A stretch of 63,973 nucleotides of DNA, the filler included, from Klebsormidium nitens (Eukaryota; Plantae; Klebsormidiophyceae), in NCBI GenBank assembly GCA_000708835.1. It is 7 parts of 7 records of this genome, joined end to end, with 100 filler letters (N's around TTAATTAATTAA, not from the genome) between each part and the next. Parts side by side here need not be neighbours in the genome. Positions count along the whole stretch, not along the records: positions 1 to 29,944 come from DF237535.1; 6 more parts are not named here. One strand, given 5' to 3'. Every line of letters starts with the position of its first letter. The first letter of the stretch is position 1. Below are positions 18,364 through 57,205 of the stretch, in pieces. The notes beneath the pieces are model-generated. The model worked only from the letters and a program-made list of their open reading frames with translations. It did not search any database and was not told where the DNA came from. The translations under genes and the position numbers were made by a program.

Positions 18364-20883
18364 TCAATTAATTACGAGAGTGGGCTCATCTTTGAACTTG
18401 CTCTCGACCACCGCCATCTCCGCAACCCGGTCGAAGGTCTTGATCAGGTAGCCCAGGCGCTTCGTCTGGTTGAGGATGCAGCTGAACACTCGGATCTGTA
18501 AAAAGGGGATCAGACCGCGTAAAAGTTCGAGAGTGCCTTCTTGTAAGGCGACTCTTTGTGTGTCTTTCGCTTGACCTGCCGTTTCGCTGGTTCCAGCTTG
18601 ATGGTCTTACGCGAGATAGTAGGCTTCGGTATATATGGCATGTAATGCTTCGCCCCTGGGTCGAAATATAGATGGAATGCGTTCACTCGGCCCCTTGTGT
18701 TCGCGGTGTCGAACTCGCTCTCGCCCCCCGACTTTATGTGCACCACGATCTTAGCTTTGAGGAGCGCACTCAGAGCTATTAGTTCCGTGTTGCCTGCATA
18801 TGTGGTGGTCCTACTCATGACTCGCTTATAAGAGGGCCCGTCCTTGATGTTCGCCTCTCCGTCTACGTTGTTGCTCGCGTATTCGTTGAGAATGAGCTCG
18901 CCGCCGGTCAGGTTGCCTCTTATCCCCCCTAGAGGAGTTCTCATATGTCCGATGACGTAATCTACGGCAGCCTGTCTGAGCTTCTTGGAATTCCGGATGA
19001 TATACGTTCTGCTGAGCGTCGTCACGTCTACGCCCTTTGCCGCTAGAGATGCCAGGAGTATGCTGTGAAAGAGACAACTGCCGTCCCCAGGCACGTGCAT
19101 CAGTTTGAAAGTGGGTGGAACTTTGGAGCTGGACTTCCGCACGGGACCCCCTCTCTGATGCGACGCGCACCTATCTGAAGATGGAATCTTTACGCAGGCT
19201 GCACGCCTCTTGCAGTGTGCATCTTTGCGAGTCTTGCCCGTGCAACGTTCGCACGCCATGCTTCCTGTATTAAGCTCATGGAAATTTTCGGGCACTCGCC
19301 TGTTGGCCTCTGTGAAGCAGATAGTCGATGGGTACGAAGGTGGCCTTGGACATCTCGATCTGGTCGAAAAGGAGGTTGAGCTTGTCCGACAGGCGGAGCG
19401 GCAGCGCCGTGTCCTGGACGCAGTACCTCGCGATCTCTGCGATTCCTTCCGGCGTCCCCTGCTCGAACAGTTCGAAGAGCCGGCGGATGGGCATGTCGTT
19501 CTTGTGCTCGTTCAGGGTGACGGAGGCCACGTTTTCCAGGCTGTAACTGTCTAGCTTGTGCGACCGCTTCACGGCCTGCATGAGATCCAGGTCCAGGATC
19601 CCCTGCATGCTGACGAGGAGGAACTTGTTGAAGCCGAACGCTGCGGACTCCAGCTGTTTCTCGCTCAGCGTGCTGGGGACTCCTTTCAACCTGCCGACGT
19701 TAACAGGGACGCCGGCCCGCCGCGCAGACTTGTACAGAAAGTTCCAATCAAAGCCGTAGCCGTTCCAAGAGTAGATGACGTCCGGAGACTCATTCATCAG
19801 GAGGCGCTGCCAGGCCATGATGACCTCTCCTTCGGAGTCGTAATTCTCCACCACGACCCCTTCGATCGGAGCGCAGTCTTTGAGCGTGATCACGTGCCTC
19901 AGGTAGGGTTCTTTCTGGCCGTACACCTTGAAGGTGCTGCCGATGGTGATGGTCCGAGCTCCTTCGAAGGAACCCTCCGGAAATGAGCCGTCTGTGGTGT
20001 AGGCCTCTATGTCGAAGCTGCACTCCACCAGAGGCGGGATCTCAGCCCCTTGTCCTGCCTCCGTACGCTTGGCTCGGATGGCCGTCTGAGGGATGAGGAA
20101 CTCCAGGTCGCACGTGGACACCTGTCGAGCCTTGTCGACAGGTTTGCGTCCTCCGAGGTCGATGGTGTGCCAGCCGCATGGCAACGAGCCCGTCTCGTGA
20201 AAGAATTGGATGACTGGGGGCACGTTCGCTTCGTAGAGCGCGAATCGATGGGGGTCTCTCTTCAGCACCCACACGTTCAGTGGCTTCTTCTGTAGAGCGT
20301 ACTGGCACTGCTTCAGCGCCTTGTCCGAGGTGACTTGGAGCTTGTAGAAGAGGAAATCCTTGTCTCCATGGTAGCCTGCACGAAAAACGCACTCCTTTCA
20401 GTAATGCAAAGAGCAGGAGGGTATCTTTGATGACAACCAGGTATCGGCACCAGCACGCTAGCTTTGCCACTTTGCTCATGCGACTTCAGGCCTAGCATAG
20501 AACTTCTTGCTTCGCAGAGAGGTGACTCTTGCGATTCCTCCGTACGCCCGCCCGTTGATCGACAGGTAGATTCTTTCTGCAGTGGCGGTGGACTCCGCAT
20601 GGCCCCATCCTTCGGGAGCCTCCAGGTACAGTGCAGGGGCGAACGGTATGCGCAGGCACACGCTCTTGCCCTCCGCCGTCCGCCCGTACATGTAGATGAA
20701 GCACTGCTTAGCCGTGTCCTCCGCGTATGCAGCCCCGCCGTAATCATCAGGATGTTCGTCGTCTCGTTTCTTGTAAGATTGGATGAGGTCTATACAAGCT
20801 TTGAAGCGCTCGTGGTTGGCTGCTGCTTTGGTAGGGTCCATGTCTTCGTCTCGAGCATCGGTGGTGAGCATGAAAACCTCCAT
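18364..20883 (-). CDS. polB: Family-B DNA polymerase, viral type, spliced and 3'-truncated (N-terminal plus 3'-5' exonuclease region only; 531 aa if spliced)
   Basis: Exons 20883-20496, 20375-19300, 18495-18364. Motifs: YMYGRTAEGKSVC; KKFY-G|G-YHG across intron 1; ExoI SFDIEAY; ExoII WNGYGFDWNFL; YSLENVA; ExoIII YCVQDTALP; LHRGQQ|IRVFSCIL across intron 2. Homology ends at KFK (~18391), before the polymerase motifs. The intron 1 donor reads CT (G|CTAGGC); the intron 2 donor is GC (CAG|GCGAGT). Confidence 0.9.
18510..19259 (-). CDS. OTU-family cysteine protease/deubiquitinase with N-terminal C-x-C-x-C-x-H finger (249 aa), nested in polB intron 2
   Basis: ATG at 19259. VPGDGSCLFHSI carries the catalytic Asp/Cys, followed by YAGNTELIALS and C-terminal KHY (catalytic His). 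N-terminal CTGKTRKDAHCKRRAAC...CASHQ resembles fingers common in giant-virus proteins. The ORF lies wholly within 18496-19299. Confidence 0.9.
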   Translation of the reverse strand: MACERCTGKTRKDAHCKRRAACVKIPSSDRCASHQRGGPVRKSSSKVPPTFKLMHVPGDGSCLFHSILLASLAAKGVDVTTLSRTYIIRNSKKLRQAAVDYVIGHMRTPLGGIRGNLTGGELILNEYASNNVDGEANIKDGPSYKRVMSRTTTYAGNTELIALSALLKAKIVVHIKSGGESEFDTANTRGRVNAFHLYFDPGAKHYMPYIPKPTISRKTIKLEPAKRQVKRKTHKESPYKKALSNFYAV

Positions 20884-20920
20884 GGTCGAAATGATGGGAA
20901 TCGACGGCTCCGATCTCCTG

Positions 20921-20928
20921 TTTATATA
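20921..20928 (-). promoter_or_regulatory. TATA box of polB
   Basis: TATATAAA on the minus strand, about 38 nt upstream of the ATG at 20883. Confidence 0.5.
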
Positions 20929-20969
20929 CTGTGGTAAGATCGTCCGAAACTTTTGAACGCTTGAAGCTG

Positions 20970-21090
20970 CCCGTCTTAAATCGGACGGTAGCTAAACCTG
21001 CCCTCTGTCTTATTTCGGACGGGGGTCAGAAGTGCCCCTGTCGATTTTTCGGACAGGGATCCATGTGACCCTCGCGTAGTTTCGGACGGG
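20970..21090. repeat. Four ~34-bp tandem units, each an imperfect palindrome around TCGGACRG
   Basis: TCGGAC at 20981, 21015, 21049, 21082 (spacing 34, 34, 33). Stems CCGTC/GACGG, CCCTCTGTC/GACGGGGG and CCCTGTC/GACAGGG; the fourth is weak. An inverted half-site TCGTCCGAAA is at 20940. Confidence 0.85.
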
Positions 21091-21095
21091 TGGTG

Positions 21096-21103
21096 TATAA
21101 ATA
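21096..21103 (+). promoter_or_regulatory. TATA box of the 265-aa ORF
   Basis: TATAAATA about 43 nt upstream of the ATG at 21146. Confidence 0.5.
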
Positions 21104-21145
21104 GGATCACAGTCTCGGCACTTTCCTAAATGGAAGACTCCAAAG

Positions 21146-21943
21146 ATGGACCCCGACGCAGTAGCTTCTCTGCTAGACGTGCTGACTGCGCGCATCAGCG
21201 AACTCGAGGTTCAGACGAGGATTCTCTGCGAATTCCATACTCTCCAAGAGTGCCAGAAGCAGGGTTGCTTATTTCCTCAGCTCTTGGGGTCGAAAGCAAA
21301 GGCAGTCCGAAAGCACTATGCCGGGTCCACCAAGCAGCACGTCTTGGTGAGTTTCGATCATGGGGGCGTCGGGCTGGACCCCTGGGCGTTCGACCTCTAT
21401 GTCAGGTTCCTGAATGGCGAGTTTTTGGAAGTGACTACGATGGCGGTCAGGAATATGATATTGGCGTTGGAGGCCATGACTTCCGACGCTGGTGATAGGC
21501 CGCATTGGTACGATGTGCATAGCGGCGAGTTCAGCCCGCACACCTACGTGAGGAACGAGATAGTGTCCAGGATCGTGACGTTTCCGTTCCCTGAAGTGGT
21601 CGCTTTCGATGGTCTGCTGAGGAAATTCGTGCTCAGCTTCGATGAGGCGACTGACGTACGAGAGATTTGCTTCATGATTGAGCACATCCTGGAGTTTCTG
21701 GGCGAGCGCGTCGAAGAAGATGCTCTGGATATTTTCGAAATCGCTCCGGAGGTGGCGCGCGTGGCAAACATGCTTCTTGCGGGCGATTTCGTGAGAGGGG
21801 AGGAAGAGGACCAAATCTGGGACGAGGTGGCGTTCCAGATGCGGTTCAGAAGCTCCTCGAGCCGCCGTAGGCTGAGGGAAGAGATAGAGAGTGTGTTGAA
21901 AGCAGACTGCGGGGTAGCCTCGCATTCGGGCGGACCCGACTGA
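21146..21943 (+). CDS. Hypothetical acidic protein (265 aa) in the viral cluster
   Basis: Long intact intronless ORF with a TATA box and protein-like composition. No family recognised. Confidence 0.75.
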   Translation: MDPDAVASLLDVLTARISELEVQTRILCEFHTLQECQKQGCLFPQLLGSKAKAVRKHYAGSTKQHVLVSFDHGGVGLDPWAFDLYVRFLNGEFLEVTTMAVRNMILALEAMTSDAGDRPHWYDVHSGEFSPHTYVRNEIVSRIVTFPFPEVVAFDGLLRKFVLSFDEATDVREICFMIEHILEFLGERVEEDALDIFEIAPEVARVANMLLAGDFVRGEEEDQIWDEVAFQMRFRSSSSRRRLREEIESVLKADCGVASHSGGPD

Positions 21944-21975: not shown

Positions 21976-22185
21976 TCATCGCAGAACTCTGTCCATAGCT
22001 GCTCTTAGGTCAGCCAACTCCAGCATATGAGCGTTCCCAGTACGTTGGATGGCCTGTTGCCTTGCACTTTGTATGACTTTAGTGAGATAACAAACGATGG
22101 AATCGTCCAGAGCCTTGTATTGAGCCTGGTTCAGCTTTTGACCGACCAATCCCTCCACCGCACGTTTCGAGATCTTTGCAGGCAT
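21976..22185 (-). CDS. Tail-less histone H4-like histone-fold protein (69 aa)
   Basis: Aligns by eye to the H4 core: ISKRAVEGLV ~ ITKPAIRRLA; YKALDDSIVCYLTKVIQSA ~ YEETRGVLKVFLENVIRDA; LADLRAAMDR ~ AMDVVYALKR. Confidence 0.75.
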   Translation of the reverse strand: MPAKISKRAVEGLVGQKLNQAQYKALDDSIVCYLTKVIQSARQQAIQRTGNAHMLELADLRAAMDRVLR

Positions 22186-22232
22186 CTATCGAGATATATA
22201 TGTTTCATAGAATATTTGTGTGCCTAGGGCGG
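22186..22232. promoter_or_regulatory. 47-bp bidirectional promoter between the H4-like and H3-like genes
   Basis: Divergent ATGs at 22185 (-) and 22233 (+). Contains a symmetric TATA-like run, GATATATATG (22193-22202). Confidence 0.55.
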
Positions 22233-23576
22233 ATGGCTCTGTCGCAAACTACTTTCAATAAGATCGTAAAGAGTTACGTCCCGCAGAATACGCACGTTGC
22301 GAATGGATTCTATCAGGTGCTCAGGAATCGCTTGGACGACCGCATATCGAGGACTTTGGAAGGAGCAAAGACCCTCGCTATCTATGCACATGAGGCAAAG
22401 AATGAGTCATTCACTCCTACCGACGCGTCTATGGTCGACTATCTGGCCGGAATCCAGACGCGCGAAGATCTACAACTGCGTCCCATGCACGATCCAGCCT
22501 ACAACAACTTCTTCGATCGCATTCGTCGTCGGCGAGCGAAAGCCGTTCCCAAACAGGTCCCAGCCGAGGATGCCGGGATGAAGCTCGTACCGGACGTCGA
22601 TTGGGGAGGTGGAGGTGGAGGTGGAGGTGGGGACTCCGACGGTTGGGGTGGGGGCGGTGACAATTACAATAATCACCACAATCCTGCAAAGACCGTGTCG
22701 AAAGGCGCCGGTCATGCAAAGAGCGGCTCGAGGCAGAGCACAAAGAGCGTGTCGAAAGGCGCCGGTCATGCAAAGAGCGCCTCGAGGGAGAGCACAAAGA
22801 GCGTGTCGAAAGGAGCCGGTCTTGCAAAGAGTGGATCGAGGCAGAGTGCAAAGAGCGTGTCGAAAGGCGCCAGTCATGCAAAGAGCGGCTCGAGGGAGAG
22901 CACAAAGAGCGCTTCAAAAGGAGCCGGTCTTTCAAAAGGCGCCAGTCATGCAAGGAGTGGCTCCAGAGATATCGCTACTAAACGCGCGGTCAAGAGCGTC
23001 GTCGAGATCCAGGAGCCTAGGACGCCGATCCAACGCGCACGCAAGACGGTCGTCGGCGCGATTGCGCCTGAGACTCCTCGACGCCAGACACCGGCCAGAA
23101 AGAGAACGCAGCCGGTGTGGGCCCGCGACTACGTCGATAATGGGACGATAGATCTTCGGAGGATCAAGCGGGATTTCGTGAGAGTCAGCGTACCGGAAAC
23201 TTACAACAACCTGTTCCACGCCGTCCGTATAGCTACCGGTGAACAGAAGACGGTCCAAAAACTTCGCGACCAGTGTGCGTTGCTGGCTAGCCGAGAGAAC
23301 ACATTCGAGCCCATATACTTGCAGCATATGTCAGAAGATGATCTGAAGGAACACGTCGCATCGCTGAAGAAGAGAGAGAAGGGTGGGGAGTTGGAGTTAC
23401 GGGTGTTGGCGTTCATCACTAAATTCACGTTGTTCGTCAAGGAGGGTCATGTGCTCAAAAAGTACATCCCGGAGATCTTCCCTGATATGGCCGGTCCCAG
23501 CCAGCAGAATTACCCTCAAGCGGTTCTGGAAGTCAAGAGATATTACGACGTGTTGCGACCAAAGACGAATGCTTGA
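22233..23576 (+). CDS. Histone H3-like fold - Gly linker - basic 18-aa repeats - inactive OTU-fold fusion protein (447 aa)
   Basis: H3 core similarity: TTFNKIVKSY ~ LPFQRLVREI; LEGAKTLAIYA ~ FEDTNLCAIHA; SFTPTDASMVDYLAG ~ TIMPKDIQLARRIRG. C-terminal ~130 aa follow the OTU pattern VPETYNNLFHAV...KLRDQC...GGELELRVLA...RYYDVL, with catalytic Cys replaced by Asn and His by Tyr. Confidence 0.8.
   Translation: MALSQTTFNKIVKSYVPQNTHVANGFYQVLRNRLDDRISRTLEGAKTLAIYAHEAKNESFTPTDASMVDYLAGIQTREDLQLRPMHDPAYNNFFDRIRRRRAKAVPKQVPAEDAGMKLVPDVDWGGGGGGGGGDSDGWGGGGDNYNNHHNPAKTVSKGAGHAKSGSRQSTKSVSKGAGHAKSASRESTKSVSKGAGLAKSGSRQSAKSVSKGASHAKSGSRESTKSASKGAGLSKGASHARSGSRDIATKRAVKSVVEIQEPRTPIQRARKTVVGAIAPETPRRQTPARKRTQPVWARDYVDNGTIDLRRIKRDFVRVSVPETYNNLFHAVRIATGEQKTVQKLRDQCALLASRENTFEPIYLQHMSEDDLKEHVASLKKREKGGELELRVLAFITKFTLFVKEGHVLKKYIPEIFPDMAGPSQQNYPQAVLEVKRYYDVLRPKTNA
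22689..22967 (+). repeat. 54-bp (18-aa) coding tandem repeat, 4 full plus 2 partial copies
   Basis: KTVSKGAGHAKSGSRQST / KSVSKGAGHAKSASREST / KSVSKGAGLAKSGSRQSA / KSVSKGASHAKSGSREST / KSASKGAGL / SKGASHARSGSR. Confidence 0.95.
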
Positions 23577-23787: not shown

Positions 23788-24954
23788 CTAAATCTCGAGA
23801 CGCTTGAGTCTCTTAAGCCTGCTCAGCTGCGAGGAAAGACATTCTTTCCACGAGCTGTCAACATCGTTGTCGACATTGTTCGACAGATCTAGGCGGGTGA
23901 GCCGAGTAAGCGTGCTGATTGCTGGGGCTAAAACTGTCATGCCTGTCTCTCCTATCTCATTCTCACTCAGGTTCAAATCAAAAAGCCTCGTAAGAGTGCT
24001 CAACGATGGTACGAGAGCTGTGATACCCGCGCTCCCGATCCCGTTGACTGCCAGGCCCAAACAAGTGAGCCCCTTCAACGTACCAAGTACCGGTCCTATG
24101 ATGGTCATGCCCGCCTCCAGTAGTTCGTTATCGTCTAGGTACAGAGTGGAGAGCCTGGTCAGTCTGGTCAAGGTTGGCACCAGAGCGGCTGCGCCCCTAA
24201 TACCAATCTTATTACCGGTTAAGTCAAGGTGTGTTAGCTTAGCTAGCATGTTGAATGAAGGGGCCAGAGCTACCATGCCTGTCCCGTGTATTCTATTGTA
24301 ACCCAGACACATAGTGGAGAGCCCGGTCATCCTGCTTAAGGCTGAGTGGAGAGCCGCTGCCCCAAAACTTCCGATTTTGTTGAACGACATGTCTAAAGTT
24401 TCGAGCCTCGTTAATCTCCTCATCTCCAGTGCAAGTGCGGCAGCTACCTCATAACCAATACCATTGCTGCCTAAGCCCAGCTCTCTAAGGTTCGTGAGTT
24501 TTCCCAGCTCTTGCGCCAGGGCCTTGGCGCTACTGTCACGGAGCGTGTTGCACCCCAATCGGAGACGATTGAGCCCCGTCAACTTCCCCAACTGCGGCCC
24601 TAGAGCGGCAGCGCCCGCACGTTCGATCTTGCCGTATGGAGAAACGACCCTTTCGATGGAGTGGAATGGAAGCTCCAAGGTTGTCAGACGAGTCATACTT
24701 CCCAACCCAGAGCTCAGGACTGCAACGCCCTCCTCGTCGACCCTCGCACCTCTCAGCCTCATAAAGGTGAGATCCTGGTAAGAGCATACGCATCTGAGGA
24801 GCTCATGCCCCAGATCTCCACCCACTGTCAGATCAAGCCTTTCCACGTATCCCTCTGCTCCAGATAGGTACTGGCGTAGAGCTCTTCCATCTACCTGCTG
24901 AAGCATGTTTGCAGACATTTTCGCGGCACTTATACCTGCACATTGCAATAACAT
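23788..24954 (-). CDS. Ribonuclease-inhibitor-like (28-residue) leucine-rich-repeat protein, intronless (388 aa)
   Basis: About ten repeats of LxxLxxLxLxxNxIGxxGxxAL, e.g. LTNLRELGLGSNGIGYEVAAAL and LTRLETLDMSFNKIGSFGAAAL. Confidence 0.92.
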   Translation of the reverse strand: MLLQCAGISAAKMSANMLQQVDGRALRQYLSGAEGYVERLDLTVGGDLGHELLRCVCSYQDLTFMRLRGARVDEEGVAVLSSGLGSMTRLTTLELPFHSIERVVSPYGKIERAGAAALGPQLGKLTGLNRLRLGCNTLRDSSAKALAQELGKLTNLRELGLGSNGIGYEVAAALALEMRRLTRLETLDMSFNKIGSFGAAALHSALSRMTGLSTMCLGYNRIHGTGMVALAPSFNMLAKLTHLDLTGNKIGIRGAAALVPTLTRLTRLSTLYLDDNELLEAGMTIIGPVLGTLKGLTCLGLAVNGIGSAGITALVPSLSTLTRLFDLNLSENEIGETGMTVLAPAISTLTRLTRLDLSNNVDNDVDSSWKECLSSQLSRLKRLKRLEI

Positions 24955-25422
24955 GCTACTTTAGCCTTAAAGCAGGGCATGTGACTCTGAGCATGGTCTT
25001 GGCCCACATGCTCGGTTCCAGCATCTCACGCAACATGGATATATGACACATTCCAGTCACGCTCGGTTTGATTCTGACATTGATTCAAAGATGACCGTGA
25101 CAATGTTGAAACTGGCGGACGGATGTCAACAACTTCTGAAAAGTTTCCATCCTACACACCGCTACATGCAGCTATTTCCTATCCCTGTCAAATCCGTTGT
25201 CTTGGCTAGATCTCCTATGGCTTCTCTTAGGTTGTTTGGCATCTCTCTCAACTGCTTGACTTCCGCTTTTGATGCCTGTAATGCGTAAGATAAAGCTCCT
25301 ACTAATGGAGAAATATGAGAAATCATCATAGACATAACAATCCTTCCTTCCTTTTTTTTGTCTCTGCATGTGACATCAGAGTCTCGTGACGTTTGCATGA
25401 GAGCAGCAGGATCCTTGTTCGA

Positions 25423-28400
25423 TTAGACTACATCCCCCCCGCAGCACCGGAAGCACCTTTTCCAGGAAGACCCAGACGTCCCGGAAGAGTTGTTGGCAGC
25501 GGGCTCCCCGTCATCCTTCTCTGGGCCAGGTTCGCCAGGGAACCCCCTCGGGGCAGCATGAACCGGCAATCGCTTTTCCACACACTTCTGGCAGATCCAC
25601 ACCGTGGCCGGGCTCCCCTGCACGGCGTTAGGCGCGGTAGGCGCGCTGCTTGCTGAGGGCCCGCTGTCGGGGACTGCGCACGCGTGCGCCTCGTACAGGG
25701 TGAGGAGTTTGGTCCAGCCCTTGTCTTTGTCGTTCTCCTGGAGGAACTGCAGCAGCTCAGCGGCCTCGAGGCCCTCCTTGCTGACGTGGTGCAGGTCGCG
25801 GGATGCGCCCTCAGCGGCCGTTGGGAGCGCAGTGTTGGGCTGAGGGGGCAACGGAGAGGAAGGCGGGTGAGTTCACAGTCGCCTGCTCAGAATCAATGGG
25901 AAACGAGACTTTGGGCGACAAGTCATGTCTTGGGTCGCCCTCGCCCATGTGAGCACCAAGGGTAGACGTCACTTTCGTCTGCAAGCAACACGTGAAGCTG
26001 GCGATTCCTAGCAGGATCCGAGCCAGCGAAGAGGAGCTGGACAGTCGTTTGAAGCGGTTCACGAGGAAGCGATGGGCATGAAATGCCATTAAGGTTCGCG
26101 TCTTGCCGAAGGATCCTGACGAGTCAACTGCAACAAACATTGCGTGAACTAAAGGCTGCATGCTTGACGTGGATCCCATGTTTCAAAAATCCACCCTGCA
26201 GATTCGGAAGGGATTTTCCAGCGGCGAAATATGTGCAAGGAGACAGCATCGTATGTACACTCCAAGATGCTTGGGGGAGGGCTCGGCTGCGGCCTGACCC
26301 CTAAGCCCTTCTTTCCTGCAGCAACGAGGCAGTTTCGAACTGCGTCACAGTCCGCATCCTCGCATCCAAAGAATCAATTCCAATACTCGGGGGTCCGGAG
26401 TCTGCGCACTTGAAAATCGAGACAAGACACCAAAGAAAGTGATCTGCAGGGCGCTCGAATACCATACCTGGCGAAATACGGGACGAAGCAGTACGTAAAA
26501 GTACGATAGATCGGGGTCCGATTTGAATTTAGGGTACCCAAAGGGTCACAGGACGCTAAGCTCGGTGGATCGTCAGAGATCTTGACAACGACGGAAGTGT
26601 ACATTATTAACGGGGAAAGAAGGGTTGCAGCGGACTGGTCACCTGCTGCAACGGGGCTTTCAAGGCCTCTATAGCCTTGACCAGGCCGTCGGCCACCTTG
26701 TCCAGTCCTGCCATGGGCGCGCACAGGCTGCCCAGCTTGCCCAGGAGCAGCAGCACGCCCAGGCCAGCTGCCAACCTCTCGGCCCACTTGGACATCTGGA
26801 TCTTGTACCCGCTTCCCTGCACGAGAGGCGCAGAGGCATGGTGAACGATTCTGGTACACGGAGACGGTTGTAATGAAGCAGAGCCGCATGTAAGAGATCG
26901 TTGTCAGGAGCGAAACGAAATCGTAGTTTCAAGCTGATGAAGAAAGCTAGATTGACAAAGCCGGGACCTCGTTGTACGAGTGCTTCACGGGCGCCCACGT
27001 CAAGGTTGAAAGCATCCGGCTGGGAAATGGAATTTGCAGTACGATCCAAATCCGTGTACTGTTGCGCGGCAATGGAGAAGCCGTGGGCGCCGGTCACCTG
27101 AAGGGCGAAGCATTCCTCGCAGCAGAGGTACAGCGTCGCATCATGGCGAAACAGCTTCTGGACGAAACCGTTGTACACAACGGAGAAGGCCAGGCGCGCC
27201 TGATCTTCTGCCGAGGAGGTGCCCTTCACGACCTTGACCGCGGCCTTCCCAACTTCTTCAGAGATATTCTCCATAATGGACCGTGCCGTGGCGCTGGTGT
27301 CGCCATGGCGTTGAATCACAAACACGCGGGGGGCTCTATTCCGTTCCACCTCGACAATAAGCCTCCCAAGGGCATGCTGCGCTTTTTCGATGAGCTCCGG
27401 AAAGACCTTCTGGGCCCTCTCGATCCGCTGCAGTCCCGCTTTCACCTCCAACTTGAAGATGGTATTCTTCAATTCACCAGAGGCCGATTTCAAATCAGCA
27501 ACCGCCGGGGCAATCTTCAAATAGGGGACGAATTCAAGGTTCACTCCTGGCGCTCCGCACGAGGCCTCCAGGTCGCCGGCTGAGAACCCCCCACTCATCA
27601 CCTGCTTGAGGACCTCGGGGGTCATGGGAAGGAAGTGGTTGGGGTAGTGGTTCGGGCAAGCAGCGGAATATTGCAGCCTCTGGTACCCGCGGAAGTCGAC
27701 CATGTGCGCGTTATAGACAGAGGTGATGACGGGAGACAGACGCTCCCACAGTAGTCTGTTCGTGTCGTCTCCTACCCCCGTGGGTGCGTTCGCCTTTGCG
27801 AGGATGTCAAAGTCGACCCCGCCGTCGCGGCGCGTCCGGGACTCCACCAGCAGTGACCCGCCATCCGACAATAGCATCAGCGCCCCCCGCCGCCACCGCT
27901 GCTGGTGAGGGTACGCGGTGCACACCCCGGACCGCACCAACACGGTCTCGAAGAAGCCCGCCGGCAGGCGACCCGTGCTCATGAGCCGCCACCCTCGGAA
28001 GACAGTGCCCCCTGACTCAGAACTCCAGGACTCAACATCCGGCGGCCGCCCCTCTGTCCACAGCCCTGGGAGGAAGTACTCTCCCTGGATCGAGTACGCC
28101 AGCTCGAAGTGCTCCAGGATCTGGAGCAGGCGCGGGACATCGATTTCCCGGTTCCTCTCGCGCAGCTTGGGCAGCTCGGGGATGAGCTCCTTGTGCAGGA
28201 GGCCACGCTTGGTGAGGTCCTTGACCTTCTCCATCAAATGCGGCTTCCAGAGCGTCTTGTCATCCAGCGTGTGGCTGAAGATGCTCCCAAGCACCAGAGC
28301 CAACCACGATGGCTGCAGGAAAACGACCTCCTTCAGTTCCCGGACCTCTGAGAACCACAACACGTAGCCCAACGCGCTCCAATAGCTCAGGGCCTCTTCG

Positions 28401-29944
28401 AACTCCGTGACGCTCTGAAAACCTAGCTCGGCGGCTTCGACCCGCTCCCAGACCCGATCCTTACGAGCCTCCAACAGTGCTCCTGACTCCAGCACCGGTT
28501 CTTGCCCCTCGCCCTTCACGCCCTTATTGGCCTTGCCATCCAAGGACCGCTGGAACTCTGCAATCTTCTCGAACAGGCCGACCCACGACCGCGGGAGCAC
28601 CCGCTCAAAACGGCTGCGGTTGCCCCTCACGAGCTTGACCAGCGCTTGTTGCAGGGCGGCAACGGCGTGATACTCGGTCGAGGAGACGCAAAAGTACTGG
28701 CTCAGCAGCTCCGGTGGCTGCTGCACATAGCCGAGGTCGTCATACTCCTCGCTCTCCACAACAAGGTCAGCGTCACGCTTCAGGGAGGTCAAGAGGGAAT
28801 CATGCAGCGCCGCCAGGGTCTGATCTGCTTCTCCCACAGCTTTGTCGCGCTTTGTCCCCACCAGGATGAACGTCGCTCCCGGCGCAACAGCTTGGATCGA
28901 GTCCAGCCGATCCTGCATAGGAGTATAAAGCTGAAAGTCTTGGAAAGAAATAGTTTCATTGCTCCTTGATTTATGTTTCCTTCTAAGCAACCTGCCACAT
29001 TCGGTCAGACAGAGAAGCCTAGGACTTTAGACTAGGATCTGCAATGTTGAGAAGCGGCCGTATCTAAGTTTTAGCCCTGTTCCCGCCCTGTCTAATCTGG
29101 CGCGCTGCTCGATAGCAGCTGTATATGACTCTGAGTTTCAAAAGTTTACGTGATGAATTAGGAGGCACCACAAAAAGGGCCCAAAAGACACAGGAAGGAC
29201 AATTATCCGAGTATCTTCAAGCTGATTCACATGATCGAATTGTAGCTCAACCTTGAAATTGCTTCTAGTCATGCGCAGGGGTCAACCTCACTGTAAAGGA
29301 GACCGTTCACCACCTTTAGAGCGAAGTTGCTTAGGAAAACAAGAGCTAGGTTCGAAGGACTCGTATTCTAGGACGGGCTGAGAGATGCGGAAAGGGACGT
29401 TGACATCACGAACGTATCAGACGCATGCACAGTGCGTCTGTTTTTTCGACTAGTCATGACTTCACCTTCAAAATGCCAACGTCAATTTCCGCACTAAGGT
29501 CCACCACCAGGATGTAGAGGCACTGGTCCACGGTGAAGAAGAGGCGCTGCATCATCCCGTACTGCTCCTGGCCAGCGCAGTCAAATACCCGGAAGGTCAG
29601 CGGGACATCGCCTCCGCCCACGTCCACTGGCCACTCCAGAAACCCAACGTCAATGCCGACGGTGGTTTCAGTGCTGCCTTCCGCCACACGTTCTCCGCTC
29701 CGCAGGGCCGCAAACAAGCTCGACTTGCCCACCCCGCCAGGTCCGATAAACATGAGCTTAGCAATGGCCCTCTTGCCAGATCCCTTTGCTAGTTGCCGCA
29801 AAAAACTGAGAACTTCGGCAGTCCCCTTTTCCACTATTTCTGATGGGGGGACCTCCAGTCGGTTGCCCATCAGTCCCAATGTTCGCAAAGCAGGAAATGA
29901 CACAAGCTCTCCAGGAACGTTCACAATCTCGTTGTAGTCCAGTT
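25423..29944 (-). CDS. Roco protein (LRR-ROC-COR, TORNADO1-like C-terminus), spliced, 5'-truncated by gap
   Basis: Exons >29944-29466, 28912-27098, 26816-26643, 25839-25423 with in-phase GT-AG junctions. Last LRR, then P-loop GPGGVGKSS, TVGID, FDCAGQ, LVGTKRD; COR region WSALGYVLWF...FLQPSWL; C-terminal GYKIQMSKWAERLA and WICQKC. An extra exon in 25840-26642 cannot be excluded. Confidence 0.88.
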
Positions 29945-31901: not shown

Positions 31902-33032
31902 CTAATTATGCAAAGTGGCTCCAAAGTCAGCCTCCATCTCTCGACAGAGGAATGGCAGATTGTAGTTGCCGAGGAAATCTCTTGTCTGTGATGGCTGGGG
32001 ATGGACCACAACACGCTCCTTTTGCTCGGTTGCCGGCGCCATCGGTGGTGTGCTCACGTTCATCCGTTTAAGTTGCTCCATCCTGTACTCATGGTCGTAT
32101 GTTGCCTGCTGCATCTTTAGCTTCTCTTGCTCAAGATTGAGATCCAATTGCCTCGTCTTATAGCCCAGCTCCGTCTGCTTCGTCTTCTCCCGTTCGATCT
32201 CTAAGCTATTGTCGTGAACATCTGACATCACGACCTCCATCGAGGTTGATAGCCTGACCGCCTTGCGCATATTGTACAAAATCTTCTCGTCGGTGAGGCT
32301 GGCTGGTGCCACAAAGATCTCGGGGTGCGTAGTGTCACCGATTGTGAGCCGCGAGAGGTTGTCCTTGATATCTCCCATGTTTCGAAAGAGCTCCTCGGCC
32401 TTTCTGTCGTCCTCAGCCTCCACCACGTGCAGCAGCTCAAAGAACAACGGCTCCTTGAAAGAAGCCTTGTGCTCCTTGTACCGTCTCCCCAGATTGGTCG
32501 TGCGCCCGAACTTGAAGAGCTTGGTCGGCCGCTGCTGGACAGCGCCGACGTAGATACACTTTTTGTTCTTGTGCAGGAGCAGCATGACCTTCTCTCTCGG
32601 GCCGATGGGTACATGGTCACGCGTGAGGGCGATGTGCGCATCCCGAATGGCAATGAAGAACCCTCGGACTGCCTTGCCACGCTCGCCCGGCGCGCACATG
32701 GCAGAGTTCTCGAATGCGTTCGTGCTCAGATAGTATTTGTCGGGCATCGAGCCTCTTTGAGCCGACCGATTTTCCCCCGTGATAAATGGTTGACCCTTCT
32801 TGTGAATGTAGTCAACATCCAGCTGAAATTGCTCCTTTAACCTGCGTGACCCATTCCCTTTTGTACTATAACCACAAAATTCCCATACAAGGTCAAAGTC
32901 GATTGGATACTTGCTCCCCTCATCGTCAAAGGCTTTGATGAAGACTCTAGCGAGATTCGCTTGGTCTGCCGAATCGAAGTTGGTGGCGACAACACGTGGG
33001 TGCGCCAAGATGGTGGCGGTCAGCTGATCCAT
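31902..33032 (-). CDS. AntA/MSV199-like DNA-binding plus T5orf172 (GIY-YIG-like) domain protein, giant-virus type (376 aa), copy 1, intact
   Basis: PIDFDLVWEFCGYSTKGNG...DY...YYLSTNAF...KAVRGFFIAI, then CIYVGAV...LFKFGRTTNLGRRYKEH, then a coiled coil EIEREKTKQ. Intronless. Confidence 0.8.
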   Translation of the reverse strand: MDQLTATILAHPRVVATNFDSADQANLARVFIKAFDDEGSKYPIDFDLVWEFCGYSTKGNGSRRLKEQFQLDVDYIHKKGQPFITGENRSAQRGSMPDKYYLSTNAFENSAMCAPGERGKAVRGFFIAIRDAHIALTRDHVPIGPREKVMLLLHKNKKCIYVGAVQQRPTKLFKFGRTTNLGRRYKEHKASFKEPLFFELLHVVEAEDDRKAEELFRNMGDIKDNLSRLTIGDTTHPEIFVAPASLTDEKILYNMRKAVRLSTSMEVVMSDVHDNSLEIEREKTKQTELGYKTRQLDLNLEQEKLKMQQATYDHEYRMEQLKRMNVSTPPMAPATEQKERVVVHPQPSQTRDFLGNYNLPFLCREMEADFGATLHN

Positions 33033-37339: not shown

Positions 37340-38418
37340 TTATTGAGGGGCTAGAACGCTCCTATATTGCTCCTGCTCAAAGTTGAGGTGAGGCACCGAT
37401 ATTGGTGTGCTCAGGCTCATCCGCTTGAGTTGCTCCATTCTGTACTCGTGATCCAATTTCGCTATCTCGGCGTCGTGGTTTAGTCTTGCCATTTCCGCAT
37501 CGTGGTCCAATGTCGCTCTCTTGGCATCATGATCCATCTTCAGTTGTTTTGCTTTCTCTTGCTCGACGGCCAACGTGTTGTCGTGCGCATCCAAGATCAC
37601 CGCCTCCGTCAAGGTCGACAGCCTAACCGCCTTGCGCATATCGTACAAGATCTTCTCTTCAGTGAGGCTGGCAGGTGCCACAATTAAAGATCTCGGTGTG
37701 AGTAGTGTCCCCGACCTTGAGCGGCGAAAGGTTGTCCTTGATGTCTCCCATGTTCCGAAAGAGCCTCGGCCTTTCTGTCGTCCTCGGCCTCCACCACGTG
37801 CAGCAGCTCAAAAAACGACGGCTCCTTGAAAGAAGCTTTATGCTATTGGTACCGTCTCCCTAGGTTGATGGTGCGCCCAAACTTGAAGAGCTTGGTCGGC
37901 CGCTGCTGAACAGCACCGACGTAGATACATTTCTTGTTGTCGTGCAGGAGCAGCATGGCCTTCTCTTTGGGGCCGATGGGGTCTCGGACACGTGTGAGGG
38001 CAATGTACGCGTCCCTGATTGCGTTGAAGAAACCTCGCACGGATCTGCCACGCTTGCCCGGCGCGCACATAGCAAAGTTCTCAAATGCATTTTGTGTTAG
38101 CATGTACCTGTCCAGTGCGCCTGACAGCTTTTCACCAGGGTTAACAGCAGGGTTAACAGCAATGTTAACCCCATGTTCATCGACTTGAATGTAGTCAGCA
38201 CCGTACTGAACTTGACAACCTTTGAGTTTGCTTAACCCACTTCCCTTTGTGCTATAACCGCAGAATCTCCAAGCGTCGTCAAAGTCGATCGCGTACTTGT
38301 TTTCCGTGTCGTCAAAAGCCTTGCCAATGAAGACCTTAGCTAATCTGGCGCGATTTGCCGGATCGAAGCTGTTAGCAAGGACATGTGGATGTGCCAAGAT
38401 GGTGTTGGTCAAATCCAT
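37340..38418 (-). pseudogene. AntA/T5orf172 paralog, copy 2 (premature stop and frameshifts)
   Basis: MDLTNTILAHPHV...AIDFDDAWRFCGYSTKG...CIYVGAVQQRPTKLFKFGRTINLGRRYQ then TAG (Glu in copy 1). The remainder continues in shifted frames to 37340. Confidence 0.88.
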
Positions 38419-40479: not shown

Positions 40480-41260
40480 ATGGCCGCGATCGCAACTTCG
40501 GAGGAGGCGGGCTTCGTCAGGAAAGGCAACTATTGGATCTGTAAGCTGTCGTCGGAAGATGGCACCATCTGCGATCAGAGCTTCTTGCGTTCCAAGAAGG
40601 AACCTTTCCGAGAGCACAGGGTCAATGTCCACTCTGAGGAGGGGCCACTCCCTGCTCTCAAGCCAGGCCGCGTCTCTACCAAAACGAAGGCCGAACACGA
40701 TGCTGATCATGCAGCAAGACAGGCGAGATACGCAGCTAGGAACGGAAGCGAAGTCATGAAGGAGCAGAGGGATGCATGCAAGCTCAAGAAGCAGCTCGAA
40801 ATCCATAGGAACAGTTTCAAGAAGCAGTTCCCATTCCAGTCGGACATCTCTAAGCCTCAGCTCCGCCTCCCCGGCATCATGACTTTCCTGAGCAATGGAA
40901 TCTCTCACACCCCTGGGGAGCTGGATGAAAGCTCTTTCTGCGCGCATACAATGTGGGAATTGGCGAGGCACAAGCTCTGTCTGGTCAGCCTTTCTCAGCT
41001 CTGCACAAAGGCGAATCATCCCAACCACATCGCGCAATCTGCGTTGCGTGCCTATGTGGAACACGCAGGGTTGGACTTTGGGCAGGATTCACTGAGCTGG
41101 TGAGTTGCAAAGGAGAGATCTGAAGTCAGTGCAGTCATATATGTCAAGATATGTTGTCAGAAGCCTGCTGTCTCATCCTAGCTGCCTGTTCATTGAGCTC
41201 TCCTGTGCCTTTTTCCAGGTATGAGGCAGCGGTGTGGAACCCAATGATGAAGAAGATAGT
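40480..41260 (+). CDS. Hypothetical protein with N-terminal C2H2-like finger, multi-exon, truncated by gap (copy 1)
   Basis: CKLSSEDGTIC...F...FREHRVNVH. Donor TG|GTGAGT at ~41101 and acceptor TTCCAG|G at ~41219 give W-YEAAVWNPMMKKI. Confidence 0.6.
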
Positions 41261-41424: not shown

Positions 41425-42205
41425 ATGGCCGCGATCGCAACTTCGGAGGAGGCGGGCTTCGTCAGGAAAGGCAACTATTGGATCTGTAAGCTGTCGTCGG
41501 AAGATGGCACCATCTGCGATCAGAGCTTCTTGCGTTCCAAGAAGGAACCTTTCCGAGAGCACAGGATCAATGTCCACTCTGAGGCAGGGCCACTCCCTGC
41601 TCTCAAGCCAGGCCGAGTCTCAACCAAAACGAAGGCCGAACACGATGCTGATCATGCAGCAAAACAGGCGAGATACGCAGCTAGGAAGGGAAGCGAAGTC
41701 ATGAAGGAGCAGAGGGATGCATGCAAGCTCAAGAAGCAGCTCGAAATTCATAGGAACAGTTTCAAGAAGCAGTTCCCATTCCAGTCAGACATCTCTAAGC
41801 CTCAGCTCCGACTCCCCGGCATCATGACTTTCCTGAGCAATGGAATCTCTCACACCCCTGGGGAGCTGGATGAAAGCCCTGTTTGCGTGCATACCATGTG
41901 GGAACTGGCGAGGCATAAGCTCTGTGTGGTCAGCCTGGCTCAGCTCTGCACGAAGGCGAATCATCCCGATCACATCGCGCAATCTGCGTTGCGTGCCTAT
42001 GTGGAACACGCAGGGTTGGACTTTGGGGAGGATTCTCTGAGCTGGTGAGTTGCAAAGGAGAATTCTAAAGTCAGTGCAGTCATACATGTCACGATATGTC
42101 GTCAGAAGCCTGCTGTCTCATCCTAGCTTCCTGTTCATTGAGCTCTCCTGTGCCTTTTTGCAGGTATGAGGCAGTAGTGTGGAACCCAATGATGAAGAAG
42201 ATAGC
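41425..42205 (+). CDS. Near-identical second copy of the C2H2-like finger gene
   Basis: 41281-42205 repeats 40333-41260 with scattered substitutions and is flanked by N gaps on both sides. Confidence 0.55.
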
Positions 42206-42972: not shown

Positions 42973-44112
42973 TCAGGGAGAAATTAGAGAACTCGCTACA
43001 GTGACCCCCGCGAGGAGTCCCATCATCCATTCTACGAACTCGGGATTAGGAATCTTCCAAGCACGCTGCTCTATCGGTGTATTCCTTTCGAACTGAAGCT
43101 GCGTGGCAAGATCACCAGTCGCCCTCAACGTCAGTGCCAGAGATGCTCTGCTTCCTCCGCTACACCTAGGAGTAGCCCACCTCTTCTTGATTATATTTCG
43201 ACCCACGATTATGTCGGCCGTGCGAGAGCTGTGCACTTTCAGAGAAAGCGTCTCGTGGCCCTCGATTACTAGCTGAAGATCGATTTCATCAGATGCGAGT
43301 CCTCTTCTATCGATGGCCCATGCCCCACTATCGCTCAGCATGCCAGTACGTGGCCATGACTCTGGTTCGATGATCGCGATTATCATGCCCTCGTCGACTT
43401 CCTGCGTAGAATGTTCCGCGCATTCGATATCTACCGGCCTGAAACCACCGCTGAGATACATGAAAGCGGTGCGTACTGCATCAGGCACCACGGAGTTGCC
43501 GAGCATGTGCAACCTATGCGTGGCACTCGGGGCATCCGGTCCTTGCAGTCGCTGAGGCTCGTTACTCCAAACGAAACGCTCGTAAGCGAGCGTTGTCCAA
43601 TGATGTTCGAATCCGGGGGCCACCGCTATGCAGAACCACCTATCTCTATCATGTGGCGCTCCACACTCGGACGCTTTCAGACAAGTCCACCGTAGCTCAT
43701 ACATGCGCTTGAAGTGAAACTCGTCTGCTACTGCATCCATCGCCAGGTGAATGACTCTGGAGACGTTCTCCAAGAAGACCACTTTGGGTCTCAGTTCATC
43801 GACCAGACGGATCATCTCGTAGAAGAGTCCACTCCTGGAGTCTGCCAAGCCTTTCCTCAGTCCTGCCGATGAGAGACCCTGACAGGGGAACGAACTCAGT
43901 ATGACGTCTATGGTTCCGAGGGAACTCCCTTGCAGCTCGCAGATATCTCCATAAATAGGGCCCGTAGGAAGCTCTCCGTCCTTCATCTGTTGAGTCACCA
44001 CCGAGTGGCAATGCTTCGATATCTCGCAATACGCAACGGTCTCCACCAGTCCCGTCAATGCTCTGGTCATGCCCCCGATACCGCAGAATAAGTCGACGGC
44101 TCTCAGAACCAT
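42973..44112 (-). CDS. C5 cytosine DNA methyltransferase, prokaryotic/chlorovirus type, intronless (379 aa)
   Basis: Motif I DLFCGIGG, motif IV SFPCQG (catalytic Cys), motif VI FLENV, motif VIII PHDRDRWF, and C-terminal RWATPR...LATQLQFE...NPEFVEWMMG. Confidence 0.93.
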   Translation of the reverse strand: MVLRAVDLFCGIGGMTRALTGLVETVAYCEISKHCHSVVTQQMKDGELPTGPIYGDICELQGSSLGTIDVILSSFPCQGLSSAGLRKGLADSRSGLFYEMIRLVDELRPKVVFLENVSRVIHLAMDAVADEFHFKRMYELRWTCLKASECGAPHDRDRWFCIAVAPGFEHHWTTLAYERFVWSNEPQRLQGPDAPSATHRLHMLGNSVVPDAVRTAFMYLSGGFRPVDIECAEHSTQEVDEGMIIAIIEPESWPRTGMLSDSGAWAIDRRGLASDEIDLQLVIEGHETLSLKVHSSRTADIIVGRNIIKKRWATPRCSGGSRASLALTLRATGDLATQLQFERNTPIEQRAWKIPNPEFVEWMMGLLAGVTVASSLISP

Positions 44113-50961: not shown

Positions 50962-52029
50962 CTGGAGCCTTTCAGGTCGGCTTATGAGCGTCAGCGCGCG
51001 AGGGGGTATTAACCGATGATGCAAGCCGGAAGCCTGGTAACCCGCTAGGTCATCCGTACTGACCAACACCCTGGTCGATACCCTGATCCTTTTAAAATCT
51101 GGTATTTAAAGTCCGACAACCTCATCCAGAAGGTTTGTGGGTCCACTTGGAGTCTCCACCGTCGATTCTTTGACGGTTTCGACCTGGTTCCGCTTACGCT
51201 CCGCTCCGTTCCAAAAGGAATCGAGCTCAGATTGTCCCACTTGGGACATCGGAAGGTTGAGAGCAAGCTTCGAAGTCGCTGTCGCGGCGTTGCGGCAAAC
51301 CGGGCGATTTCCTGAATAACCGGGCAGCGCCGCCAGGTCGCCGCGGCGACCGACGCGAAAGCGTGAATGCCTTCGCAGCGACGCAAGGGCGTTACACACT
51401 TGCGCCGTCGCAGCCTGTCGACTCGCGCGCACGTGCGGCAAAATTTGCAAAATTTAAAATTTCACCGTCGATGAAAATTACGATCGAGAATCGGCGTCCA
51501 GAATTTTCCCCGCAGCTTTCGGGAAGAGCCTTCGCGGCGCTGGACACTTGAATTGTCGCAGCGCCTTGACGGCGCTGCGGTAGCCGGGGCTCACCCTTCC
51601 GATGGATTGTACGTAGTGGCTAGCAACTTCAAGTTGCCGGTGCTAGTTGTCTTCTTTGCCCGTGCTGGCTACGAAGCACTAACGCTAATAAATAAAGACA
51701 ACTTTCTGACTCCTGTGACACTGTGGGTCCAAGAACACAGCAGAGGAGCCCACCTGCTAATGACACGTGGCAGATCAACGGTGGTAGGCAGCTCGTAGAA
51801 GGTCGGCGGGACGGCTGACGCGGCCGCGCGAACTTCGTAGTCACAGAGCCTGCAAAACTTTAAACAATATTTCTGTCAGAAAACAGTTGAGAGTTGGTTT
51901 ACAAAAACTCTCAGGTCGTTCGTGCCGTCTTGGCAGCCTTACGAACTGACCTGGTGACAACCTTCTGCTTCGGCTTCTTAGCCTCAGGAGGCTTCGCCTG
52001 AGCTTGGGCGGGCTCGGGTACACCTTTCC

Positions 52030-57184: not shown

Positions 57185-57205
57185 TTTATATACCTGGCGA
57201 CATTT

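What the first reader, a model, noticed from the sequence alone, without database searches (positions are those of the whole stretch)
21976..22460. Head-to-head H4-like / H3-like genes only 47 bp apart, both lacking N-terminal tails
Seen: divergent ATGs at 22185 and 22233 with a symmetric TATATA between them. Both proteins begin directly at helix 1 of the fold and are highly diverged from canonical histones. No H2A/H2B-like gene is nearby. Established: eukaryotic H3/H4 genes are often divergent pairs, and described viral histones are often fused doublets. Inference: stoichiometric co-expression of an (H3-H4)-like dimer or tetramer forming archaeal-like or tetrasome chromatin, or titrating host ASF1/CAF-1.
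Basis: partly seen in the sequence, partly recalled or inferred. Interest (0 to 1): 0.85.

Follow-up and report, generated by a model that had tools for sequence, protein, structure and literature searches.

The report
Viral histone-fold pair with OTU tail
In a virus-like stretch of a green alga's genome, two back-to-back genes encode a tiny predicted histone-fold protein and a much larger protein whose likely histone fold is joined to a basic tail and a probably inactive deubiquitinase-like domain, so the pair likely formed an unusual viral DNA-packaging module rather than ordinary histones H3 and H4.

Summary
The divergent layout is real: ATGs at 22185(-) and 22233(+), 47 bp apart. The left gene is a 69-aa protein modelled as a histone fold (pLDDT 84), with TAF12, H2B, TAF11, CENP-W, H3.V and H4 as tied matches. 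The right gene was misread. It is not a tailless H3 but a 447-aa protein: a likely N-terminal histone fold, a basic linker (net +27) and a C-terminal OTU-like domain with no catalytic Cys/His. Nine relatives share the N-terminal domain, and three add OTU domains with a catalytic Cys motif. Two homologue pairs share contig lengths, suggesting conserved linkage. The heterodimer prediction gave weak support (0.57, controls 0.00). H3/H4 hallmarks fail: no alphaN helix, and the RxTxxxxD arginine is present in 1 of 10 and 0 of 4 sequences. The pair lies beside a truncated PolB and an OTU gene, in what looks like a giant-virus insertion in Klebsormidium nitens. Best reading: a viral histone-fold heterodimer carrying its own DNA-condensing tail and a ubiquitin-related domain. 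An H3-H4 tetrasome or ASF1 sink is poorly supported. I found no histone-fold/OTU fusion in print (3 searches).

The parts
21976..22185 (-). 69-aa minimal histone-fold protein (three helices, residues 7-14, 20-49, 57-68), net charge +5, no tails
   Evidence: ORF; AF2 pLDDT 84; histone folds fill nearly all top rows in PDB searches; 3 homologues at 80-97% identity; Atlas 0.90 to a CENP-W/CBFD cluster
22186..22232 (.). 47-bp intergenic spacer, 38% GC; likely shared bidirectional promoter (inferred)
22194..22201 (.). Self-complementary ATATATAT, 8 bp from the left ATG and 31 bp from the right ATG
   Evidence: single copy in the window; 0.3% of shuffled spacers
22233..23576 (+). 447-aa protein: likely histone fold + Gly-rich segment + basic linker + OTU-like domain
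22233..22526 (+). N-terminal domain (residues 1-98): likely histone fold (about 5-72) plus two further helices; near-neutral charge
   Evidence: Atlas 0.89, ten best family-bearing hits share one histone-fold clan, lead only; helix pattern in a low-confidence AF2 model; 9 true homologues; 79/83% identity in residues 1-75 to P0005/P0006
22605..22661 (+). Gly-rich segment; a Gly-Gly lies 55-68 residues after the alpha3 Asp in 6 of the 9 family members long enough (possible maturation site, lead only)
22689..23117 (+). Basic low-complexity linker (residues 153-295, net +27, pI 12), including 4.6 copies of a 54-bp repeat at 22687-22936
   Evidence: residues 101-295 only 32/33% identical to close homologues
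23118..23573 (+). C-terminal OTU-like domain, Asn and Tyr at the positions of the catalytic Cys and His (predicted pseudo-deubiquitinase)
   Evidence: 39% and 31% identical (E 2e-23, 2e-17) to the C-terminal domains of P0008 and P0014, which carry those proteins' best Pfam OTU stretches; hhalign to intact OTU domains weak, E 2e-4, probability 21%; no direct Pfam hit
18510..19259 (-). Context: stand-alone OTU protease gene with Cys and His motifs
   Evidence: Pfam OTU E 1.2e-8; alignment
19276..20883 (-). Context: family B DNA polymerase gene in two frames, ending after the exonuclease domain
   Evidence: DNA_pol_B_exo1 E 2.4e-39
21146..21943 (+). Context: 265-aa unknown ORF, convergent with the small gene (32 bp between stops)

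Best explanation
The two genes, which lie head-to-head 47 bp apart, are likely relics of a giant DNA virus and likely encoded a histone-fold heterodimer in which the 69-aa protein would pair with the predicted N-terminal fold of the 447-aa protein, the basic linker would bind and condense viral DNA, and the predicted inactive OTU-like domain would act as a ubiquitin-binding or scaffold module. Shown: the layout, the domain order of the large protein, the charges, and conservation of both folds against a fast-changing linker. Predicted: the fold of the small protein (good), the fold of the large protein's N-terminus (moderate), and dimer formation (weak). Inferred: co-transcription from the spacer; a role in packaging or chromatinising the viral genome; DNA contact supplied mostly by the C-terminal basic tail, since the folds lack the usual loop-2 Arg/Thr; and, in relatives with intact OTU domains, removal of ubiquitin from viral or host chromatin or self-processing near the Gly-Gly segment. 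This copy sits beside a truncated polymerase and may no longer be used.
For: Small protein: AF2 pLDDT 84 with short-long-short helices. All listed Foldseek rows and all but 2 of 50 VIA rows (top Z 8.2, rmsd 1.5, 66 aligned) are entries of histone-fold complexes; the best viral match is Medusavirus H4 (TM 0.75, E 0.18). Large protein: Atlas leads are all histone-fold clusters (0.89), and the domain is N-terminal in 9 of 9 true homologues. Complex: score 0.57, best of 3 controls 0.00; runs agree in at least 65% of contacts, partner pLDDT at least 74 (weak, see against). Linkage: P0003/P0005 share a longest contig of 55,886 bp and P0002/P0006 one of 2,234 bp. Selection: residues 1-75 are 79/83% identical, residues 101-295 32/33%, the C-terminal domain 72/68%. 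Tail: net +27; P0008 has 10 S/T-P-x-K/R-type motifs, most in its linker. OTU: P0014 has 2 and P0008 1 OTU domains with Cys and His motifs, and P0009 has the Cys motif. Viral context: PolB exonuclease, OTU, AEP-PriCT2 primase, DNA methylase, T5orf172, weak GIY-YIG; a paper lists Phycodnaviridae-type core genes in this species' genome (PMC5294986, passages).
Against: The complex score is weak. The mark was reached by 51 of 78 solved complexes and 2 of 108 mismatched pairs, but at 0.60 or under by only 5 of the 78 and by all 4 mismatches that passed (of 180). It may also reflect memory of solved histone-fold dimers. The AF2 model of the large protein is uninformative (pLDDT 36), so its histone fold rests on an Atlas score under 0.9 and on helix pattern. 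No Pfam histone hit for either protein or for any of 12 true homologues. The C-terminal OTU assignment is indirect: the intact-OTU HMM scores the window's domain 3.0 bits, reached by 5 of 300 shuffles. P0016 (a P0006 cluster member) lies on a 7,228-bp contig that P0002 does not share. No small partner was seen for the 7 distant homologues. No virion, DNA-binding or expression data.
Confidence: 0.45

Rival explanations
1. The pair is a viral mimic of a non-nucleosomal histone-fold dimer (TAF pair, NC2, NF-YB/C or CENP-T/W type). It would dock on host TFIID/SAGA or promoter DNA and bring an OTU module to viral promoters.
For: Top structural rows include TAF12 (Z 8.2), TAF11, TAF6, CENP-W (TM 0.81), NC2 and NF-Y. 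The Atlas lists Nucleocytoviricota clusters named TAF-domain proteins, and BFVD a Tetraselmis virus TAF12-like protein. A minimal fold plus a fold with extra C-terminal helices and a long appendage fits these pairs (recalled). Neighbouring genes have TATA-like boxes about 40-50 bp upstream.
Against: Z values tie within 1 with H2B, H4 and H3.V. A +27 repeat linker fits bulk DNA binding better than a factor dock (inference).
Confidence: 0.2
2. One reading: true H3- and H4-derived proteins forming an (H3-H4)2 tetrasome or archaeal-like hypernucleosome.
For: H4 rows are among the tied best (Z 7.7, 19% identity), and Medusavirus H4 is first in BFVD. The small protein has three helices only. The alpha3 Asp and a Gly 9 residues later are conserved in 10 of 10 and 9 of 10 large-protein sequences, a spacing recalled from H3.
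Against: No alphaN helix. Arg at -7 from the Asp in 1 of 10 and 0 of 4 sequences, Thr at -5 in 0 of 10 and 0 of 4. His at -10 in 0 of 10. The large fold is near neutral (net -1) and carries 350 further residues.
Confidence: 0.12
3. Only the small protein is a histone fold (a homodimer like archaeal histones). The large protein's N-terminal domain is another helical domain or does not bind it, and the adjacency is ordinary viral gene packing.
For: Large-protein model pLDDT 36 with no fold match. Atlas score under 0.9. Complex only weak; 7 of 44 blind neighbours pass the mark. No profile similarity between the two domains (hhalign probability 0.2).
Against: The ten best family-bearing Atlas hits share one histone-fold clan. 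Controls scored 0.00, and chain-1 pLDDT was 56-59 with the partner against 46 with unrelated partners. Linkage is suggested in 2 homologue pairs.
Confidence: 0.15
4. The proteins act as a sink for host ASF1/CAF-1.
For: Histone-fold shape only.
Against: ASF1 needs the H3 alpha2-alpha3 surface and the H4 C-terminal strand (recalled). The small protein ends 10 residues (6 in P0003) after the alpha3 Asp, and identity to H3/H4 is about 20% or less.
Confidence: 0.04
5. The public gene model is right: one spliced host gene (KFL_005860030, P0004) joins ORF 21146 to residue 19 of the large ORF, and the small ORF is an antisense frame inside an intron.
For: P0004 matches 256 aa of the upstream ORF plus the last 429 aa of the large ORF, with GT/AG ends.
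Against: The model drops helix 1, which is present in 8 of 9 homologues (P0011 is short). The small ORF is conserved at 80% with the same start in other sources.
Confidence: 0.04

Closest known systems
Nucleocytoviricota histones (Marseillevirus H4-H3 and H2B-H2A doublets; Medusavirus singlets)
   Same: Viral, highly diverged histone folds. Marseillevirus doublet genes are divergently transcribed (PMC9145170, passages). Medusavirus H4 is the top viral fold match.
   Different: Those are found by histone HMMs, come as full four-histone sets and keep the R-D salt bridges. Here there are only two folds, on separate genes, invisible to Pfam, and one is fused to a basic linker and an OTU-like domain.
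Viral histones fused to unknown domains in NCLDV MAGs; viral KOW-histones
   Same: A histone fold with an appended non-histone domain (PMC9145170 section 15; 10.1101/2024.12.06.627149 parts 1-2 of 5).
   Different: The appended parts there are unknown regions or KOW. No OTU fusion appears in the text I read.
Non-nucleosomal histone-fold dimers (TAF4/12, TAF6/9, CENP-T/W, NF-YB/C, NC2)
   Same: Best or tied structural matches of the small protein; a small partner plus a larger partner with extra helices (recalled).
   Different: No sequence or Pfam match to any of them; viral setting; OTU-like domain.
Archaeal HMf-type histones
   Same: About 69 aa, tailless; Atlas neighbours are largely archaeal/CBFD clusters.
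   Different: Lacks the RxTxxxxD motif described for nucleosomal archaeal histones (PMC11390915, passages; tested); appears to be a heteropair.
Viral OTU domains of polintons and adenovirids
   Same: Active and inactivated viral OTU domains fused to DNA-associated proteins, proposed for self-processing or structural roles (PMC11161782, passages).
   Different: Those are fused to protein-primed polymerases or helicases, not to histone folds.

Membership tests
Histone-fold superfamily (69-aa protein) | Short alpha1 - long alpha2 - short alpha3 fold | tested here: met
   AF2 pLDDT 84; TM up to 0.81 and Z 8.2, rmsd 1.5 over 66 residues to histone folds; Z near 8 is middling by the tool's own note, Foldseek E-values not below 0.067
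Histone-fold superfamily (N-terminus of 447-aa protein) | Short alpha1 - long alpha2 - short alpha3 fold | tested here: inconclusive
   Atlas 0.89 with histone-fold neighbours; helix pattern fits but pLDDT 34-54; no fold match from that model
Histone-fold superfamily | Handshake dimer between the two proteins | tested here: inconclusive
   Weak support: 0.57 against 0.00
Histone H3 | Match to histone profile (PF00125) | tested here: not met
   No hit at E up to 1 for the window protein or 9 homologues
Histone H3 | alphaN helix before the fold (PMC9145170) | tested here: not met
   Helix 1 starts at about residue 5; the 2 close homologues and 3 distant ones start at the same place
Histone H3 | Loop-2 Arg-Asp salt bridge and DNA-contacting Thr (RxTxxxxD) | tested here: not met
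   Asp 10 of 10; Arg 1 of 10; Thr 0 of 10 (an Arg/Lys sits at the Thr position in 4 of 10)
Histone H3 | H3-H3' four-helix bundle (tetramer) | not tested
Histone H4 | Match to histone profile, or clear best structural match to H4 | tested here: inconclusive
   No profile hit; H4 ties with TAF12, H2B, TAF11, CENP-W, H3.V; Medusavirus H4 first in BFVD at E 0.18
Histone H4 | RxTxxxxD motif and a C-terminal tail after alpha3 | tested here: not met
   Asp 4 of 4, Arg 0 of 4, Thr 0 of 4; 6-10 residues after the Asp
Archaeal nucleosomal histones (HMf) | RxTxxxxD motif; PF00808 match | tested here: not met
TAF / NF-Y / CENP-T-W histone-fold pairs | Family profile match | tested here: not met
   No Pfam hit; structural likeness only
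OTU deubiquitinases (C-terminal domain) | OTU homology | tested here: inconclusive
   Indirect through P0014 (Pfam OTU E 1.3e-10 for the protein, best stretch 672-751) and BLAST E 2e-17; direct tests weak
OTU deubiquitinases (C-terminal domain) | Catalytic Cys and His | tested here: not met
   Absent in the 6 complete C-terminal domains aligned; present in the extra OTU domains of P0008 and P0014
Endogenous Nucleocytoviricota segment | Viral core genes embedded in host DNA | tested here: inconclusive
   PolB exonuclease and AEP-PriCT2 primase; DNA contigs join the block to both flanks (a run that may be the source of the window); no capsid, packaging ATPase or tree tested here; species-level report in PMC5294986

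The most novel reading that the evidence does not exclude
A giant-virus lineage of streptophyte algae uses a two-gene, non-nucleosomal chromatin unit. A minimal histone fold pairs with a second fold that carries its own protamine-like tail and up to two active OTU deubiquitinases plus a pseudo-OTU, making a histone-fold protein that edits ubiquitin on the chromatin it builds or invades. It is too diverged for the histone HMMs used in viral histone surveys.
Probability: 0.35. Interest if true: 0.82.

Novelty: new variant of a known kind. Interest (0 to 1): 0.6.

Why it matters
Viral histone surveys rely on HMMs of H2A/H2B/H3/H4 and prokaryotic histones. Pfam's histone-fold profiles miss this family altogether, so viral histone-fold diversity may be undercounted. 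A histone fold fused to OTU deubiquitinases would tie viral genome packaging directly to ubiquitin control of chromatin. It also gives a gene pair to test from a virus of streptophyte algae, a group for which the 2017 paper I read reported no isolated NCLDV. The locus also flags a likely mis-annotated host gene model (KFL_005860030).

Tried and rejected
Sequence and profile searches for histone identity gave nothing: Pfam, NCBIfam, PDB sequences. The full-length AF2 model of the large protein was low-confidence, and its Foldseek search gave only noise; a VIA search of it could not be run. No related locus was found in 8 of 8 IMG/VR scans, 2 of 2 JGI metagenome scans (25, 62) or 1 GTDB scan, so synteny could not be read directly. 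No longer (fused) form of the small protein among 1337 candidates (66; weak evidence). Own HMMs found no second copy of either fold in the window's six frames. No RNA holder was listed, and no contig of 3 guessed RNA runs lay on the region; this says nothing on expression. P0013 and P0015 were dropped as false hits (bacterial Ig-repeat proteins), leaving 9 of 11. No whole genome was held, so H2A/H2B-like genes elsewhere could not be sought. Earlier findings: nothing in 3 look-ups. Literature searches for a histone-fold/OTU fusion and for viral TAF-like folds (82) listed nothing on it by title or abstract start; I did not read the supplements of the viral histone surveys, which might list this family. 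A centred, symmetric TATA was rejected. No tree with reference histones could be built, as no tool returned those sequences.

Full report
Observation. The window has ATGs at 22185 (minus) and 22233 (plus), 47 bp apart. The left ORF is 69 aa. The right ORF does not stop near 22460 (codon 76) but runs to 23576, giving 447 aa. The spacer holds the window's only ATATATAT (22194-22201; 0.3% of shuffled spacers), 8 bp from the left start and 31 bp from the right. It is therefore self-complementary but not centred. That it drives both genes is inference.

Setting. The large ORF is 100% identical over 96% of its length to a Klebsormidium nitens model protein, KFL_005860030 (P0004). Next to the pair are an OTU protease gene and a family B polymerase gene that ends after its exonuclease domain. 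Further off are LRR and Roc-COR genes, a DNA methylase, T5orf172, an AEP-PriCT2 primase and a retroelement RNase H. In DNA run X1, which may be the source of the window, a 19-kb contig joins the ORF-poor left flank to the OTU gene and another joins the large gene to the LRR gene. A paper lists Phycodnaviridae-type core genes in this species' genome (PMC5294986, passages). I read the block as a decaying giant-virus insertion. This is an inference: no capsid gene or tree was tested.

The small protein. It has 3 homologues at 97, 80 and 80% identity, all with the same start. AF2 gives pLDDT 84 and helices 7-14, 20-49 and 57-68. Foldseek returns histone-fold entries in all listed rows, with prob up to 1.00 but E no better than 0.067. 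VIA ranks TAF12 (Z 8.2, rmsd 1.5, 66 aligned), H2B.W 8.1, H2B 8.0, then TAF11, H4 and CENP-W at 7.7, all tied. The top viral match is Medusavirus H4 (E 0.18, TM 0.75). The Atlas gives 0.90 to a CENP-W/CBFD-type cluster. So it is a histone fold, but which kind is unresolved.

The large protein. Residues 1-98 form a conserved domain. A profile search of 1.84 billion proteins gave 11 hits, of which 9 are true homologues and 2 were dropped as Ig-repeat proteins. The domain is N-terminal in all 9. Atlas neighbours are histone-fold clusters (archaeal, CBFD, TAF, CENP-S, two Nucleocytoviricota TAF-like clusters) at 0.89 or less, a lead only. The full-length AF2 model is poor (pLDDT 36), though its helices fall at 5-13, 20-54 (broken) and 62-72. 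After the fold come two more helices, a Gly-rich segment, a linker of net charge +27 with a 54-bp repeat, and a 152-aa C-terminal domain. Identity to the two close homologues is 79/83% in residues 1-75, 32/33% in residues 101-295 and 72/68% in the C-terminal domain.

OTU link. The C-terminal domain is 39% and 31% identical to those of P0008 and P0014, and those stretches are the best Pfam OTU matches of these proteins. Direct evidence is weak: hhalign to four intact OTU domains gives E 2e-4 and probability 21%, and HMM scores lie at the edge of shuffles. In that alignment Asn and Tyr/Phe replace the catalytic Cys and His. P0014 has two and P0008 one further OTU domain with both motifs between fold and C-terminal domain; P0009 has the Cys motif. 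The family plan is thus fold - linker - 0 to 2 intact OTU - pseudo-OTU.

Do they pair? ESMFold2, without alignments, scored the small protein with residues 1-95 at 0.57, best of 3 controls 0.00; contacts agree at least 65% between runs and partner pLDDT is at least 74. The tool rates this weak. The mark was reached by 51 of 78 solved and 2 of 108 mismatched pairs, but at 0.60 or under by only 5 of 78 solved and by all 4 passing mismatches (of 180), and likeness to solved histone dimers may drive it. Independently, 2 of the 3 small homologues share their longest-contig length with a large homologue (55,886 and 2,234 bp). Against this, P0016 lies on a 7,228-bp contig not shared by P0002, and no contig could be read.

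H3/H4 test. H3 is defined by an alphaN helix, and H3/H4 by Arg-Asp bridges and the H4R45-H3T118 pair (PMC9145170, passages). Nucleosomal archaeal histones share RxTxxxxD (PMC11390915, passages). Here the Asp is kept (10 of 10, 4 of 4), but the Arg is found in 1 of 10 and 0 of 4 and the Thr in none. There is no room for alphaN, and the small protein has no tail after alpha3. One feature favours H3: a Gly nine residues after the Asp in 9 of 10, a spacing I recall from H3. The labels H3 and H4 are therefore not earned, and a tetrasome or ASF1 sink is unlikely.

Mechanism. Most likely (0.45) the two folds formed a heterodimer that anchored a basic, H1/protamine-like tail and an OTU-type module on viral DNA, for packaging or for protecting the incoming genome. 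Relatives with intact OTUs could remove ubiquitin from chromatin or cut themselves. Viral OTUs are described as both processing proteases and deubiquitinases, and inactivated ones are kept as structural parts (PMC11161782, passages). A Gly-Gly 55-68 residues after the Asp in 6 of 9 long members recalls the Gly-Gly-X sites of ASFV core polyproteins (PMC8619059, passages); this is only a lead. The main rival (0.2) is a TAF/NF-Y/CENP-T-W-like cofactor mimic.

Gene model. P0004 splices 256 aa of ORF 21146 onto residue 19 of the large ORF, removing helix 1 and treating the small gene as intron. Conservation of both argues that the model is a prediction error; no RNA data were available to settle it.

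Novelty. Viral histones, divergent histone gene pairs and histones fused to unknown domains or KOW are known (PMC9145170 passages and section 15; PMC11222145 passages; 10.1101/2024.12.06.627149 parts 1-2 of 5; PMC10583209 passages). A histone-fold/OTU fusion did not appear in that text or in the listings of searches. Supplements were not read.

Noticed in passing
window 19276-20883 (-): PolB gene lies in two frames with a break near 20400-20490 and ends after the exonuclease domain, directly before the OTU gene; no polymerase domain follows.
   Followed up: partly
window 18383-20677: DNA run X1 holds contigs of diverged second copies of the OTU and PolB region, suggesting further related viral insertions; P0007 (KFL_014610030) is a 37%-identical paralogue of the large protein in the same species.
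   Followed up: partly
window 20884-21145: A second divergent pair (PolB and ORF 21146), each with a TATA-like box about 40-50 bp upstream of the ATG, suggesting host Pol II-type promoters.
   Followed up: no
window 21146-21943 (+): 265-aa ORF with no Pfam or NCBIfam match, merged with the large gene in the public model KFL_005860030.
   Followed up: partly
window 23788-29870 (-): LRR gene and Roc-COR gene pieces with few or no introns, next to the viral block; host or viral origin not tested.
   Followed up: no
window 31902-33032 and 37843-38418 (-): Two related genes, one with a T5orf172 domain.
   Followed up: no
window 40480-41103 and 41425-42048 (+); 49563-49976 and 50581-51012 (+): Two near-identical tandem ORF duplications beside assembly gaps; may be real duplications or assembly artefacts.
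   Followed up: no
window 42973-44112 (-): Intronless C5 cytosine DNA methylase (Pfam E 1e-36) beside retroelement fragments at 44.2-46 kb.
   Followed up: no
window 52900-60738: Second viral-type cluster: AEP-PriCT2 primase cut by a gap, a weak GIY-YIG/zinc-finger gene and a 421-aa gene of unknown function, in lower-GC DNA; may be a different element.
   Followed up: partly
P0008 (linker before the C-terminal domain): Ten S/T-P-x-K/R-type motifs, most in tandem, like the SPKK motifs of sperm H1 (recalled).
   Followed up: no
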